This document shows, piece by piece, positions 21,001 through 32,500 of a stretch of 64,000 nt of DNA (position 1 is the stretch's first letter; every line of letters begins with the position of its first letter). Source of the stretch: Malacoraja senta (lineage: Eukaryota); contig JAXLNO010005534.1 of assembly GCA_038087875.1 (NCBI GenBank), forward strand, positions 1 to 64,000, written 5' to 3'. Made by a program: the position numbers.

Positions 21001-23534
21001 TTGTTCCCAGTGCTCTGTCAGGTCAACAAAACACAGCCCCCATACGTTACCATGTTCCATAAATATTCACTGGACATGGTACTGGGATGTTGTCTATGTG
21101 GAGTTTGCATGTTCTCCCTGTGAGCACGTGGGATTTCTCCCGGTGCTCCGGTTTCCTCGCACATCTCAATGATGTACAGGTTTGTAGGTGAGTTGGCCTT
21201 TGTAAAATTGCCCTAGTGTATGGAAAGCGGATGTGAAAGAGGGATAACATAGAACTGGTGTGCAGGATGGATGGTATCAACTCGATGAGCTGAAGGCTCT
21301 GCATCCATGCTGTATAACTCAACTAAACTAAGCAATATTATCTAAGCTGTGGTGTAGAGCGTGGTTCGTATTGAAAACAAAGATCCTTGTTGACTGGCCC
21401 ATCAAATACTTGAAGCACTGAGTAAAGCATTAAATGCAAAGGCAATTACTTCTCCACTACACCATCAGGTATGTGAACAAGGAATGCAGGTTACAGTATG
21501 TGACAAAGAGAAGTGGCAAAATAACTAGGAACGAACTGCAGATGCAGGTTTAACCCGAAGATAGGCTCAAAAAGCTGAAGTGACTCAGCGGGTCAAACAG
21601 CATTTCTGGAGTCTGAACAAGGGTCTCATCCCGAAATGTCACCTATGCCTTGTATCCAGAGATGCTGTCTGATCCGGTGAGTTTCTCCAACTTTTTGTGT
21701 CTATCTCTGGCAAGATATGTATATGATGTTTGAGAGGCTTTTAGATCGACAAACTGACCTGCAGGAAATAGAGGGATATGGATCATGTTGCAGTTGGATG
21801 GGATCAGTTTAGCATCTCATCATGTTCACCACAGACATTGTGGGCCAAAGGGCCTCTTCCTGAGATGAATATTTTTATGTTTTTTATAAAATAAGATTAG
21901 TAATCAGCTGTAAGCCCCCTTGAACAGACTGCATCATTCAATAACATTATGTCCAATCTGATTTTGATCAGTTTACTGCATTATTCCTGCTACCTTTGAT
22001 TAATTTCTGATCTAAAATTCTCTATATCTCAACCTGGAAAATATTCATTCACCTTGTCTTCACAGCTGGAATAGAATGTTCAGGCAAATCATACACCTCC
22101 TGGAAAATAAATCTTCTTCGTAACTATTTTAAAGAGGGACCCAACATGGGAGGACAGCCGAGAACAAAGATAACAAAGTGGGTCCCGGGGTTGGGGGGGG
22201 AGGGGGCGCAGATAACACAGGTGAACCCAACATGGAGGGGCTGCCGAGAACAAAGAGGGACCATTGGAGACTGTAATGATTACTTTGTAACTGTGTCGGC
22301 ACCCTATACATGGTGACTCTTTCTATACCTTGTGTATGTTATGCAAAGCAAAGAATCTCACTGTGACATGTCACATGTGATAATAAAGTATCAATCAGTC
22401 AAATAGGCGACCTCTTATTCCAAAATGTGGCACAATGTATGACTTTGGAATCACTGGGTAACTGGTGAAGACAGCAGTTGAAAAATTAATGGCTGAATGT
22501 AAAGCCACCAGTCAGCATTGATACAATAAAGAGCATAGAACATAGAACAGTACAGCACAAGAACAGTCCCTTTGACCCACAATGTTTGTGCCGAACATGA
22601 TGCCAAGACCAATTGTTATCTGCTTGCACATAATCCATATCCATTCATTCCCTGCATATACATGTGCCTATCTAAAAGTCTCTTAAATGCCACTATCATA
22701 TCTGCTTCCACCACCACCCCCGGCAGCACATTCCAGTCACTCGCCACCCTTGGCGTAAAACACTTGACCTGCACATCTTTTTTAAACTTTGCCACTCATT
22801 GTAAAGCTATACCTGCTCTTATTTGATATTTCCTTCCTGGGTAAAAAGTCTGATGGTCTACACTATCTGTACTCCTCCCAGTTTGATATATTACTGTCAG
22901 GTCTCCCCTCAATCCCCGACATTCCAGAGAAAACAATCCAAGTCTGTCCAACTTCTCCCTGTGGCTAATACCCCACTAATCCAGACATCATTCCGGTAGA
23001 CCTCCTCTGCTTCCCAACGGAAGCTGGTTGTGCTTCATGGTCACTGCAGTCCTCTCCTGGTCTCTGCTGTTGTCAGCTGGTCCCTGTTCATTGAGAATTT
23101 TTCTCCTTTTCCTCTTCTTCCAGCAACCAATTCCAAGGATGATCCCCAGGAGAATAAGAGGAACGATTACAGCTCCAGTCACGATCCTAATCTTTATATC
23201 TTCTTTTGCTGCCCTCTCTGTTGGCAGATATAGGGCATTTTAAACATTTATTGATCAATAACGACATTGTAATGATTTTATTTTTTTGAATTTAATCTTT
23301 TTATTTGAATTTCACGGCAATTAACATACATACAATAATAACAGACAGTAATAATCAAGGCATAATTGTACAACAGTATGTAAGCGATCCTCAAAACCTT
23401 TACCCATACTCACCTTCAACCCACCCAAGTCAGGTCGGAGCCAAACGGGGACAAACAACACTCACATACGTACACATCCACACACAAATGGTAGAATAGG
23501 CGAAACAAAATGTGCTATATAAAAGAAATAAAAA

Positions 23535-23596
<62 letters not shown>

Positions 23597-29500: not shown

Positions 29501-32500
29501 CTGGATATTGTCCAGCTTCGTTTCCAATTTGGTGAACGCAGTGTTAAATTCTGCCAGTAACAATACCTTATGTTCTGTTAACATGGCTGCTAGCGTGGCC
29601 ATACTGGCGCTGGTCGCCGGGTCTTCTGTCTTTTGCTCCGCTTTCTTTCCTTTGTTTGGCATCTTTACAGCATAGACAGGTACTCACAATGATGTTTAAA
29701 TGTTTGTGGGTGGTTAAAAAACTTAGACTGAGCTGTAATAAAAGTTGGAGGTGAAAAGGTCGGGAGCGTGGAAAAGTGCGACTACTCCAGCATGTCGCCC
29801 CCACCGGAAGTCCTGTAATGATTTTATTATCTACATTAAACTAGCATTGTTCACATCTAAATAAAAATAACAAAGTCTTAGATTTATGTAATTGTCCAGA
29901 CTATGGATGTTTAAATAGATCAATGAAAAATCTTTGAAGTTCATATTAGCGTTGAGATTTTATCTGCAGCATTTAATTATGAATTTAAAGAATCAAGCAT
30001 ATGTCAGAAATAGATGACTATATGCAGTGTAGAGGTCAACAAGGCTATTTTCTTATGTTGACCATTGTTATTTTAGCAAATAAAAGTGAACCCACTTATA
30101 GTTGATAAAACTTCAAAGGTTTTAAACTTTGCTGATATTTCAATATCTGAGAGTTTGATATTCTCACACACACACACACTCTCTTTCTCTCCCTCCCTCC
30201 CTCCCTCTCCCCCTCTCTCTGTCTCACACACATGAGCGCACACAAACACACACACGCGCGCGCACACACACACACATAGGCACACTCAGACATTAACACT
30301 ACTGTCTATTTGTAGTGACCAGCAATTTTAACCATGTCAGCTTGGCCCTGGTGTGAAGATATTTGCAGAGGTTTTGACTGGAACAAATAAGTCAGCTACA
30401 GAACAGGTGCTGCTACTTCAGACTGATAATGGGGTTGGATGTGGGACCACTATTGGCCTTTTGTGCAACTAGCTACTATAAAAAAATTAGCTAGATGCCC
30501 AAGAAATAAGATAAGAGACCTTGGCCAGGATCAGCCTATCTTGCTTCCTACATTTGGATCTGTGAGTTAAGGGTGACATAAGAATATTTTTTACCATTGG
30601 AGCAGAAGTAGGCCTTTCAGTCCATTGAGTCTACTCCACCATTCAGTCATGGCAGATCTATTTTTACCTCTGAATCCCATTCTCCAGCCTTCTCCCTGTA
30701 ACCTTTGGCAGCCATATTAATCAAGAACCTATCATTCTCTGCTTTAAAATATGCAATGACTTGACCCACACAGCTGTCTGTATCAATGAATTCCACAGAT
30801 TCACCACCCTGTGACTAATGAAATTCCTCCTCATCTCCATTTTGAAAGTACGTATTTTTATTGTGAGGCTGTGCTAGACTCTCCCATTACTGAAAACATC
30901 CTATCCACATCCACTAACTGGGACTTTCATTAACTGGTATGTTTCAGAGATTCCCCCCTCATCCTTCTAAATCCCACGAGCGCAGGCACAGAGACTTCAA
31001 ACATTCCTCATACGTTAAATCAATCATCCCCAGGACACACTTCCTCTGGACCCTCTCCAAAGCCAGCACATCCTTTCTAATATGGAGCCCAAAACTGCTC
31101 ACAATATTTCAAATGTATCCTCACCAGTGCCCGATAAATCCTCAGCATTATATCATTGTTTTTATCTTCTAGTCCCCCCGAAATGTCCCCCCTAAACTTC
31201 TAGTCCCCCCGAATTAAGGGACAGAAGTTTAGGGGTAACATGAGGGGGAACTTCTTTACTCAGAGAGTGGTGGCTGTGTGGAATGAGCTTCCAGTGAAGG
31301 TGGTGGAGGCAGGTTCGTTTTTATCGTTTAAAAATAAATTGGATAGTTATATGGACGGGAAAGGAATGGAGGGTTATGGTCTGAGCGCAGGTATATGGGA
31401 TTAGGGGAGAATACGTGTTCGGCACGGACTAGAAGGGTCGAGATGGCCTTTTTCCGTGCTGTAATTGTTATATGGTTATATGGTTAAATGAATGCTGGCA
31501 TTGCATTTGCCTTACTTACCACTGACTCAATCTGCAAATGAACTATTTGGGAATCCTGCACTAGTACTCCCACTTTGTAGCTCAGATTTCTGAATTCTCT
31601 CCCCATTTATTAAATAGTCTATGTCTTTATTCCGACTGCCAAAATGTAAAACCAGACACTTGCTACACTGTATTACATTTGGCTCTGCTTTGCCCACTCG
31701 GTGGAACTGCTGCCTTACAGCGCCAGAGACCCGGTTCAATTCTGACTACGGGTCCCGTCTGTACAGAGGTTTGTACCTTCTCCCCGGGACTTGCGTGGGT
31801 TTTACCCTGGATCTCCGGTTTCCTCCCTCAGTCCAAAGACATACAGGTTTGTAGGTTAATTGGCTTGGTATAATTGTAAATTGTCCCCTAATAAGTAAGA
31901 TAATGTAAGTGTGCAGGGATCGCTGGTTGACGCAGACTCGTGGGCCAAAGGGCCGGTTTCTGCGCTGTATCTCTTAAAGTAAAACCACATTCCATTGACT
32001 ATCAATAATTCTGGGCAATTAGATAACCACAAATTAATAATGGGTGGCACAGTGGCGTAGCGGTAGAGCTGCTGCCTTACTGCACCAGAGACCTGGGTTT
32101 GATCCTGACTACAGGTGCTGTCTGCAAGGACATTGTATGTTCTCCCTGTGACTGCGTGGGTTTTCTCCGGGTGCTCCGGTTTCCTCCCACACTCCAAAGG
32201 CATACAGGCTTGAAGGTTACTTGGCTTAGGTAAAATTGTAAATTGTCCCCAGTGTGTTGGTTAGTGTAAATGTACGGGATGATCACTGTTCAGCGAGGAC
32301 TCAGTGAGCTGTGGGGCCTGTATCTGCACCATATCTCTAAAGTCTAAAATCTAAATGCACAGTTTAGTTAAGAGTGTGTTGAGGCTGTTATCTCAGTCCA
32401 GGACGTTTATTGTCTCAAGTGATCAGCCTCATTGACTTGCCACTTACCCTGTGGAACATTGACTCCCTGCAGCAGAGTTGCATGTTCGATGTAACAGGAG

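What the first reader, a model, noticed from the sequence alone, without database searches (positions are those of the whole stretch)
23218..29828. Full-length sense-oriented L1 inserted 50 nt upstream of the TM-exon acceptor
Seen: a 6.5-kb L1 with a perfect 15-bp TSD lies in the alpha3-TM intron, on the same strand as the gene. Its AATAAA and poly(A) end about 50 nt before the 3' splice site, close to the expected branch-point zone. The empty allele would have an intron of about 2.7 kb. Established: sense intronic L1s cause premature polyadenylation and elongation defects. Inference: the insertion could convert a membrane MHC-like protein into a truncated or secreted form, silence it, or let the L1 5' promoter (ETS-like ACTTCCGG at the 5' end) drive TM-exon-only transcripts. 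Intact ORF1 and TSD suggest it is recent and perhaps polymorphic.
Basis: partly seen in the sequence, partly recalled or inferred. Interest (0 to 1): 0.65.

Follow-up and report, generated by a model that had tools for sequence, protein, structure and literature searches.

The report
Sense L1 in skate MHC-like intron
A 6.5-kb L1 retrotransposon with a broken second gene sits in the last intron of an intact MHC class I-like gene of a skate-like fish, and it is most likely an ordinary, tolerated insertion.

Summary
A 6,531-bp L1 (23283-29813, minus strand) is flanked by a perfect 15-bp target-site duplication. It lies in sense orientation in the 9,230-nt intron between the alpha3 exon (32720-32448) and the TM/cytoplasmic exon (23217-22988). 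The host is an elasmobranch MHC class I-like gene, not human; its closest relative is from Leucoraja erinacea. Gene models from five other species join alpha3 directly to a homologous TM segment, so the 23217 exon belongs to this gene.

Corrections:
- The L1 proper ends 65 nt from the exon (15 nt duplication plus 50 nt), so 65 nt of native sequence before the acceptor are untouched.
- The A-tail is only 5-7 nt.
- ORF1 is intact, but ORF2 has two frameshifts and an in-frame stop.
- The sense strand is not A-rich (27% A). It carries fewer AATAAA/ATTAAA per kb than the native intron.

All five host exons are open, with GT-AG borders. The proposed truncation or silencing is possible but untested, and the mammalian analogy is weaker here. 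I rate it an ordinary intronic L1 insertion of low interest. Age, polymorphism and transcript effects could not be tested with the tools on hand.

The parts
29814..29828 (.). Target-site duplication, copy at the L1 5' end
   Evidence: 15 of 15 identical to 23268-23282
29663..29813 (-). L1 5' UTR, 151 nt, with the ETS-like motif ACTTCCGG (sense) at 29811-29804
   Evidence: Sequence read. The motif is seen directly. Promoter function is inferred only.
28841..29662 (-). L1 ORF1, 273 aa, open
   Evidence: 86% identical over full length to a 273-aa Leucoraja erinacea protein; other hits are named L1 ORF1/RRM proteins. PDB LINE-1 ORF1p matches at E 1.7e-10 over residues 107-262. Pfam Transposase_22 is only E 0.024, below its cut-off.
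27608..28840 (-). 1,233-nt non-coding spacer between ORF1 and ORF2, T-rich (36% T, sense), with low-complexity runs
   Evidence: No ORF with a family match. No Rfam match at gathering score.
23817..27607 (-). L1 ORF2 (endonuclease, reverse transcriptase, Cys-rich C-terminus), full length but broken
   Evidence: Colinear with residues 1-1263 of the 1263-aa homologue P0089, read in three frames. PF03372 and PF00078 match. zf-RVT scores 26.4 bits against a cut-off of 27.5. PDB LINE-1 ORF2p matches at E 1.9e-67, against R2 at 2.3e-22.
26504..26511 (-). ORF2 frameshift 1, at a run of six T (sense)
   Evidence: The frame changes between 26504 and 26508 in the alignment to P0089. Sequence read.
25432..25434 (-). 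In-frame stop codon inside the reverse transcriptase region of ORF2
   Evidence: The ORFs 25432-26640 and 24742-25431 are contiguous in one frame. The alignment to P0089 runs through the stop.
24779..24786 (-). ORF2 frameshift 2, at a run of five A (sense)
   Evidence: The frame changes between 24781 and 24779. Sequence read.
23283..23816 (-). L1 3' UTR. It holds a 226-nt palindrome around (TA)n at 23453-23678, AATAAA at 23305-23300, ATTAAA at 23296-23291 and an A-run at 23287-23283.
   Evidence: (palindrome arms 99.1% identical)
23268..23282 (.). Target-site duplication, copy at the L1 3' end. On the sense strand it reads AATAAAATCATTACA and so contains an AATAAA of its own.
23218..23267 (-). 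The 50 native intron bases before the TM exon: branch-point-like sites, a weak pyrimidine tract and the CAG acceptor
   Evidence: Pyrimidine count 11 of 17.
22988..23217 (-). Host exon 5: connecting peptide, TM segment and cytoplasmic tail, ending in the stop at 22990-22988
   Evidence: 87% identical to the C-terminus of L. erinacea P0001 and also matched by P0003, P0004, P0006 and P0008.
32448..32720 (-). Host exon 4: alpha3, an Ig C1-set domain, 273 nt, with the donor G|GTAAGT
   Evidence: PF07654 at E 1.4e-14. 86% identical to P0001.
33925..34200 (-). Host exon 3: alpha2, 276 nt
   Evidence: PF00129 at E 2.5e-16. PDB MR1 at 2e-16 and a classical class I chain at 3.9e-14.
35958..36218 (-). 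Host exon 2: alpha1, 261 nt
   Evidence: PF00129 at E 5.6e-4, below its cut-off. 95% identical to P0001.
45278..45329 (-). Host exon 1: a candidate leader starting with ATG, with a phase-1 GT donor
   Evidence: 13 of 17 residues identical to the leader of Pristiophorus P0006, E 4.8e-4. Sequence read.

Best explanation
This is a canonical, endonuclease-dependent (target-primed) insertion of a full-length L1 of the fish type. It lies in sense orientation in the last intron of a conserved elasmobranch non-classical MHC class I-like gene.

Shown:
- The element's parts, its 15-bp duplication, and a T-rich nick site (+ strand ...TTTTATT/AT...).
- Intact ORF1; ORF2 with two frameshifts and one in-frame stop.
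- A host gene of five open exons (363 codons by summed exon lengths), all in phase 1 with GT-AG borders.
- The TM exon belongs to this gene.

Inferred: the insertion is a tolerated passenger. The duplication leaves the 65 nt before the acceptor exactly as before, so the branch point, pyrimidine tract and AG are untouched. The alpha3 donor is near-consensus. The L1 lacks the A-rich, signal-dense sense strand on which the mammalian effects rest. I therefore expect normal alpha3-to-TM splicing to remain the main outcome.

At most, a minor share of transcripts would end or splice inside the L1. Any transcript that keeps the start of this intron would encode the same soluble product: alpha1-alpha3 plus 13 residues read from the intron, then a stop.

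The element cannot move on its own as assembled.
For: - Duplication and ends.
- L1 identity: PF03372 and PF00078; PDB LINE-1 ORF1p at 1.7e-10 and ORF2p at 1.9e-67; homologues named L1 ORF1 or LINE-1 RT.
- ORF2 lesions.
- Host exons and splice borders. Domains.
- TM exon membership: of the 8 homologues fetched, 5 (P0001, P0003, P0004, P0006, P0008) were run against the window and all 5 match the TM exon after alpha3. P0005 shows the same join in its sequence. P0002 and P0007 end without a TM segment.
- Composition and hexamer counts: A 27.2%, T 29.7%; 9 hexamers in the 6,531-nt L1 against 7 in the 2,684-nt native intron.
- The gene tolerates other LINE pieces. Intron 1 holds an antisense EN+RT element at 41360-44127 and an unclassified 231-aa sense-strand ORF at 37857-38549. 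That ORF has no Pfam match; I read it as LINE-like from recall only.
- Kaer et al. 2011 (PMC3192792, passages read) state that roughly 1,000 full-length human L1s lie in tandem with their host genes. Such arrangements are therefore common.
Against: - No transcript data exist here, so 'tolerated' is inference.
- The real TM acceptor has a weak pyrimidine tract (11 of 17). By the same crude count, 28 of 130 YAG sites in the intron score higher, and 12 of the 13 that score 13 or more lie inside the L1. There are also two donor-like sites in the L1, at 28684 and 23413. Cryptic exons or a cryptic terminal exon are therefore conceivable.
- The insertion more than triples the intron and adds a full L1 5' UTR. 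In human minigenes that UTR interferes with host transcription (PMC3192792, passages).
- Intact host exons do not prove function if the insertion is young.
- No protein 90% or more identical to the alpha3 exon turned up; the best was 86%. This exact gene is thus not among the annotated proteins found, and that search scored only 32 candidates.
Confidence: 0.65

Rival explanations
1. The sense L1 disrupts the gene. Premature polyadenylation, a cryptic terminal exon or slowed elongation would turn the membrane protein mainly into a truncated, secreted alpha1-alpha3 form, or silence it.
For: - Sense orientation and full length.
- The L1's own AATAAA (23305-23300) and 8 further AATAAA/ATTAAA hexamers lie on the sense strand.
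- There are many acceptor-like sites with better pyrimidine tracts than the real acceptor, for example at 28522 and 27637, and hexamers downstream at 27133, 26645 and 26548.
- Human sense full-length L1s reduce host transcription and cause intron retention and cryptic polyadenylation in minigenes (PMC3192792, abstract and passages).
- Read-through from alpha3 meets a stop after 13 codons, so a soluble product is what any such transcript would encode.
Against: - The 65 nt before the acceptor are native.
- The alpha3 donor matches 7 of 8 consensus positions.
- The L1 is not A-rich, and its hexamer density (1.4 per kb) is below that of the native intron (2.6 per kb).
- The native sequence already carried two AATAAA within 65 nt of the acceptor.
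- All five host exons are still open.
Confidence: 0.2
2. This host copy is already a non-functional or unexpressed duplicate, so the insertion has no consequence.
For: L. erinacea has at least two related models (P0001, P0002), and P0002 looks aberrant, so the lineage is multi-copy or poorly modelled. No near-identical annotated protein was found.
Against: The exons sum to 1,089 nt, or 363 codons, with no internal stop and with canonical GT-AG borders in phase 1. Identity to P0001 runs from 85% to 95% per exon, apart from 72% for an alpha2 match that runs on into flanking intron.
Confidence: 0.1
3. The L1 5' promoter drives transcripts that run through the element into the TM exon and have a function of their own.
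For: An ETS-like ACTTCCGG lies 2 nt from the L1 5' end.
Against: This is a single 8-nt motif. The L1 has its own terminal AATAAA. The only ATG in the TM exon reading frame lies in the cytoplasmic tail, after the TM segment and 15 codons before the stop, so no TM-bearing product could start inside the exon.
Confidence: 0.03
4. Assembly artefact: the L1 was placed here by misassembly.
For: Repeats are prone to misassembly. Both frameshifts sit in homopolymer runs, a typical site of consensus errors.
Against: A perfect 15-bp duplication sits exactly at both ends, next to the A-run and at a T-rich nick site. This is the signature of real retrotransposition, not of a chimeric join. The window holds no N.
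Confidence: 0.02

Closest known systems
L1 (LINE-1) clade non-LTR retrotransposons, fish-type lineages
   Same: - Two ORFs. ORF1 has the RRM-plus-CTD fold region of LINE-1 ORF1p.
- ORF2 has an APE-type endonuclease, an RT closest to LINE-1 ORF2p, and a Cys-rich C-terminus.
- It also has a target-site duplication, a terminal AATAAA and an A-tail.
- The nearest named relatives are L1 proteins of a skate and of teleosts.
   Different: - Compared with mammalian L1, the 5' UTR is short (151 nt), the ORF1-ORF2 spacer is 1.2 kb, the tail is only 5-7 A and the sense strand is not A-rich.
- This copy has a broken ORF2.
Gene-breaking by sense intronic L1s in mammals: premature polyadenylation, elongation defect and transcriptional interference. 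Han, Szak and Boeke 2004 and Perepelitsa-Belancio and Deininger 2003 are recalled, not read. Kaer et al. 2011 (PMC3192792) was read as abstract and passages.
   Same: A full-length L1 lies in tandem with the host gene, inside an intron, with poly(A) hexamers and splice-like sites on the sense strand.
   Different: Kaer et al. cite 19 poly(A) signals on the human L1 sense strand. Here I count 9 canonical hexamers, at a density below the host intron's own, and 27% A. No transcript evidence is available.
Elasmobranch non-classical MHC class I (MHC-Ib) lineages UBA, UDA, UEA and UFA (Verissimo et al. 2023, PMC10751288, passages read)
   Same: The host gene has alpha1, alpha2, an alpha3 C1-set domain and a TM segment. 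It has close relatives in rays and sharks (Leucoraja, Pristis, Mobula, Hypanus, Pristiophorus, Cetorhinus). This fits an old elasmobranch class Ib lineage.
   Different: I could not assign the gene to a named lineage. No reference sequences were on hand, and the supplements that may hold them are closed. The source's name 'MR1-like' is an automatic label. The alpha2 exon scores only slightly better against MR1 (2e-16) than against a classical class I chain (3.9e-14).

Membership tests
L1 (LINE-1) retrotransposon | ORF1 protein of the L1 type (coiled coil, RRM, C-terminal domain) | tested here: met
   PDB LINE-1 ORF1p at E 1.7e-10 over residues 107-262. 79 homologues at E <= 0.001, several named L1 ORF1 or RRM proteins. 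The Pfam Transposase_22 match alone is below its cut-off (E 0.024, 15.4 bits against 22.4).
L1 (LINE-1) retrotransposon | ORF2 with an N-terminal APE-type endonuclease | tested here: met
   PF03372 at E 1.1e-18, covering profile positions 1-225 of 225
L1 (LINE-1) retrotransposon | Reverse transcriptase closest to L1 ORF2p rather than to other non-LTR clades | tested here: met
   PDB LINE-1 ORF2p at E 1.9e-67 against R2 at 2.3e-22. PF00078 at E 4.4e-33. No formal clade tree with Tx1, CR1, L2 and RTE references was made.
L1 (LINE-1) retrotransposon | Cys-rich (CCHC-type) C-terminal domain of ORF2 | tested here: inconclusive
   zf-RVT scores 26.4 bits, just under its cut-off of 27.5 (E 1.1e-5). 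A Cys/His cluster is visible in the translation.
L1 (LINE-1) retrotransposon | Hallmarks of target-primed insertion: duplication, 3' A-tail, T-rich nick site | tested here: met
   A 15 of 15 duplication. An A-run of 5-7 nt and a + strand target ...TTTTATT/AT. The tail is unusually short.
L1 (LINE-1) retrotransposon | Coding competence (autonomous copy) | tested here: not met
   Two frameshifts and one in-frame stop in ORF2. Both frameshifts lie in homopolymer runs and could be assembly errors; the stop would remain.
MHC class I family (host gene) | Alpha1/alpha2 MHC_I fold | tested here: met
   Alpha2 exon: PF00129 at E 2.5e-16, and 494 PDB class I-family sequences at E <= 0.001. Alpha1 exon: only E 5.6e-4, below its cut-off, but 95% identical to the relative P0001.
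MHC class I family (host gene) | Membrane-proximal Ig C1-set alpha3 domain followed by a TM anchor | tested here: met
   PF07654 at E 1.4e-14. The TM exon holds a hydrophobic run and matches the C-termini of 5 of the 5 relatives run against the window.
MHC class I family (host gene) | Classical peptide-anchoring residues and beta-2-microglobulin binding | not tested
   No residue-level alignment to classical chains was made. Exons were handled one at a time and no joined model was folded.
L1-caused premature polyadenylation / gene breaking | Sense orientation inside a transcribed intron | tested here: met
   Both the L1 and the gene are on the minus strand
L1-caused premature polyadenylation / gene breaking | A-rich sense strand with dense poly(A) signals | tested here: not met
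   A 27.2%, T 29.7%. 9 hexamers in 6,531 nt against 7 in the 2,684-nt native intron.
L1-caused premature polyadenylation / gene breaking | Transcripts that end or splice inside the element | not testable with these tools
   No transcript data for this organism are on hand

The most novel reading that the evidence does not exclude
The insertion is a young, still segregating allele in a skate population. It would divert a substantial share of transcripts of a conserved elasmobranch non-classical MHC class I gene into a soluble alpha1-alpha3 form of about 300 residues ending in 13 intron-coded residues. That would be a natural membrane-to-secreted switch, or a null allele, caused by an L1 lineage whose closest named relatives outside skates are in teleosts.
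Probability: 0.1. Interest if true: 0.45.

Novelty: new member of a known kind. Interest (0 to 1): 0.2.

Why it matters
If the L1 changed the output of this gene, it would be a natural case of a retrotransposon turning a membrane MHC-like molecule into a secreted one, or knocking it out, in one of the oldest jawed-vertebrate lineages. It would also give a handle on the function of a poorly known class Ib lineage.

As the evidence stands, it is one more intronic LINE copy in a LINE-rich gene. Its main use is as a possible presence/absence marker and as a nearly complete reference copy of a skate L1 family.

Tried and rejected
- **Other copies in the window.** I looked for further copies of the L1, to date this one, and for a paralogous gene with an empty site. 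blastn of the element found only its own internal palindrome. tblastn of the four exon peptides found no second MHC-like gene.
- **Structured RNA.** Rfam at gathering score over 22000-33000 gave 0 matches.
- **An alternative TM exon.** I considered one inside the 2.7-kb native part of the intron. The relatives' C-termini match only 23236-22991, so I rejected it.
- **Chance or misassembly.** The position of the duplication at both ends rules this out.
- **Naming the host gene's class Ib lineage.** The passages read in PMC10751288 name UBA, UDA, UEA and UFA but give no sequences. The supplements are closed.
- **Left unchecked.** The orthologous intron in other skates and the L1 family consensus could not be examined.

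
Full report
**What the window is.** The window holds no N. I take it to be from an elasmobranch close to skates, not from a human. The alpha3 exon is 86% identical to a Leucoraja erinacea protein, and the next hits are from Pristis, Mobula, Hypanus, Pristiophorus and Cetorhinus. The L1 ORF1 is 86% identical to another L. erinacea protein.

**The observation.** The + strand reads TGTAATGATTTTATT at 23268-23282 and again at 29814-29828, 15 of 15 identical. 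This is the only perfect 15-nt pair among the 7 direct-repeat families found in 22900-30200. The two copies touch the element's ends exactly.
- On the sense (minus) strand the element starts GG-ACTTCCGG at 29813.
- It ends ...AATAAA(23305-23300)...ATTAAA(23296-23291)TTC-AAAAA(23287-23283).
- The + strand target reads ...TTTTATT/AT..., a T-rich nick site of the kind the L1 endonuclease uses (consensus recalled, not tested).
- The element is 6,531 bp.

**The element's parts.**
- The 5' UTR is 151 nt.
- ORF1 (29662-28841) is open for 273 codons.
  - It matches solved LINE-1 ORF1p structures at E 1.7e-10 over residues 107-262.
  - It has 79 relatives at E <= 0.001, several named L1 ORF1 or RRM proteins.
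  - The Pfam Transposase_22 match alone is sub-threshold.
- A 1,233-nt non-coding, T-rich spacer follows.
- ORF2 starts at 27607.
  - It carries an APE-type endonuclease (PF03372, E 1.1e-18) and a reverse transcriptase (PF00078, E 4.4e-33).
  - It has a near-threshold zf-RVT C-terminus.
  - Its RT matches solved LINE-1 ORF2p at E 1.9e-67, against 2.3e-22 for R2.

**ORF2 is complete in length but broken.** Against the full-length 1263-aa homologue P0089 it is colinear over residues 1-1263, but in three frames:

| P0089 residues | Window coordinates |
|---|---|
| 1-369 | 27607-26504 |
| 368-943 | 26508-24781 |
| 945-1263 | 24779-23823 |

The middle block runs through an in-frame stop at 25434-25432. 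ORF2 therefore carries two frameshifts and one stop. The frameshifts sit in a T6 run and an A5 run, so they might be assembly errors; the stop would still remain. As assembled the copy is not autonomous.

The 3' UTR holds a 226-nt palindrome around a (TA)n tract, with arms 99.1% identical.

**The host gene.** I handled the gene model exon by exon. On the minus strand the exons are:

| Exon | Coordinates | Content | Evidence |
|---|---|---|---|
| 1 | 45329-45278 | candidate leader | 13 of 17 identical to the Pristiophorus leader, E 4.8e-4 |
| 2 | 36218-35958 | alpha1 | |
| 3 | 34200-33925 | alpha2 | PF00129, E 2.5e-16 |
| 4 | 32720-32448 | alpha3 | C1-set, E 1.4e-14 |
| 5 | 23217-22988 | TM segment and tail, stop included | |

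All junctions are GT-AG in phase 1. The coding lengths sum to 1,089 nt, or 363 codons, with no internal stop.

**Does the 23217 exon belong to the gene?** One search returned 8 homologues.
- Five were run against the window (P0001, P0003, P0004, P0006, P0008). All five continue from the end of alpha3 straight into a segment that matches 23236-22991; P0001 is 87% identical there.
- P0005 shows the same join in its sequence.
- P0002 and P0007 end without a TM segment.
- No other match to a TM segment exists in the window.

**The intron.** The alpha3-TM intron is 9,230 nt. Without the element and one duplication copy it would be 2,684 nt.

**How close is the L1 to the splice signals?** The L1 proper ends 65 nt before the exon: 15 nt of duplication plus 50 nt. 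The duplication is native sequence, so the 65 nt before the acceptor are exactly as in the empty allele.
- Within those 65 nt I find branch-point-like sites with A at -38 (TTGAT), -35, -24 and -42, and no AG between them and the acceptor. This is my reading of the sequence.
- That vertebrate branch points mostly lie 18-40 nt upstream is recalled, not tested.
- The core 3' splice signals are thus untouched.
- The alpha3 donor (G|GTAAGT) matches 7 of 8 consensus positions.

**Does the mammalian analogy hold?** Only in part.
- The sense strand has A 27.2% and T 29.7%, so it is not A-rich.
- It has 6 AATAAA and 3 ATTAAA in 6,531 nt (1.4 per kb). The native intron has 7 in 2,684 nt (2.6 per kb), including two AATAAA within 65 nt of the acceptor that were present before the insertion.
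- Kaer et al. 2011 cite 19 poly(A) signals on the human L1 sense strand. They report that full-length sense L1s interfere with host transcription in minigenes, and also that roughly 1,000 full-length human L1s sit in tandem with host genes (PMC3192792, abstract and passages).

Several results count against my reading.
- The real acceptor has a weak pyrimidine tract, 11 of 17.
- 28 of 130 YAG sites in the intron score higher on this crude count.
- 12 of the 13 sites scoring 13 or more lie in the L1.
- Two donor-like sites lie in the L1, at 28684 and 23413.

Cryptic exons or a cryptic terminal exon are therefore possible. Any transcript that does not use the alpha3 donor would read 13 more codons and then stop. 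It would encode a soluble alpha1-alpha3 product of about 300 residues.

**Age.** A clean 15-bp duplication and an open ORF1 suggest that the copy is not ancient. Three lesions in ORF2 and a 5-7 nt tail do not mark it as very young either. No other copy of the family is in the window. No eukaryotic genome collection was open, so neither divergence from a family consensus nor an empty orthologous site could be checked.

**Context.** The gene is LINE-rich.
- Intron 1 holds an antisense EN+RT element at 41360-44127.
- Intron 1 also holds an unclassified 231-aa sense-strand ORF at 37857-38549. It has no Pfam match; I read it as LINE-like from recall only.
- Further RT pieces lie at 7814-9958, 19082-20146 and 52669-53526.
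- A second, distant L1-like remnant lies at 59238-60327.

**Verdict.** This is a real, well-formed L1 insertion in sense orientation in the last intron of an apparently intact elasmobranch class Ib-like gene. The anatomy is confirmed. The proposed effect on the gene is possible but unsupported, and the mammalian precedent is a weaker guide here. It is a new instance of a known kind of event and of low interest unless transcript or population data show an effect.

**Papers.**
- PMC10751288: passages only.
- PMC3192792: abstract, outline and passages.
- All other titles: search listings only.
- Han, Szak and Boeke 2004, Perepelitsa-Belancio and Deininger 2003, and the branch-point distance figures are recalled, not read.

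Noticed in passing
window 28841-29662 (ORF1) and 25435-26640 (RT): The skate L1 proteins are unusually close to teleost L1s. ORF1 is 67% identical to a pipefish (Entelurus) protein, and the RT piece is 70% identical to a medaka protein. In an ORF1 tree of 17 rows, the window and Leucoraja pair (support 95/99) sits in an unresolved polytomy among teleost sequences. The pipefish ORF1 is closer to the skates (67-70%) than to other named teleosts (55-61%). This could reflect horizontal transfer or an old, slowly evolving lineage; it is unresolved, and five rows of the tree have no taxon.
   Followed up: partly
window 23453-23678: A 226-nt near-perfect palindrome (arms 99.1% identical) is centred on a (TA)n tract inside the L1 3' UTR. 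I do not know whether it is a feature of the family or arose after insertion.
   Followed up: no
window 27608-28840: The non-coding spacer between ORF1 and ORF2 is unusually long at 1,233 nt. It is T-rich on the sense strand and has low-complexity runs and a C-run. There is no ORF with a family match and no Rfam match.
   Followed up: partly
window 22988-45329, minus strand: The host gene belongs to an MHC class I-like lineage conserved across rays and sharks. Six genera have relatives 60-86% identical in alpha3. TM segment and tail lie in one terminal exon, and intron 1 is about 9 kb. Sources label the relatives 'MR1-like'. The alpha2 exon scores only slightly better against MR1 (2e-16) than against a classical class I chain (3.9e-14). 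Which named elasmobranch class Ib lineage it belongs to (UBA, UDA, UEA or UFA) was not resolved.
   Followed up: partly
window 59238-60327, minus strand: A second, distantly related L1-like ORF2 C-terminal remnant, 31-38% identical to the same homologues and read in two frames.
   Followed up: no
window 41360-44127 (+), 7814-9958 (+), 19082-20146 (+), 52669-53526 (+): Other non-LTR retrotransposon pieces with EN or RT domains. The first lies antisense in intron 1 of the host gene.
   Followed up: no
L. erinacea protein P0001, residues about 178-190: Between alpha2 and alpha3 the L. erinacea model carries extra residues. They correspond to read-through of the intron after the alpha2 donor in the window, which meets a stop there. 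That model probably uses a different or mispredicted donor.
   Followed up: no
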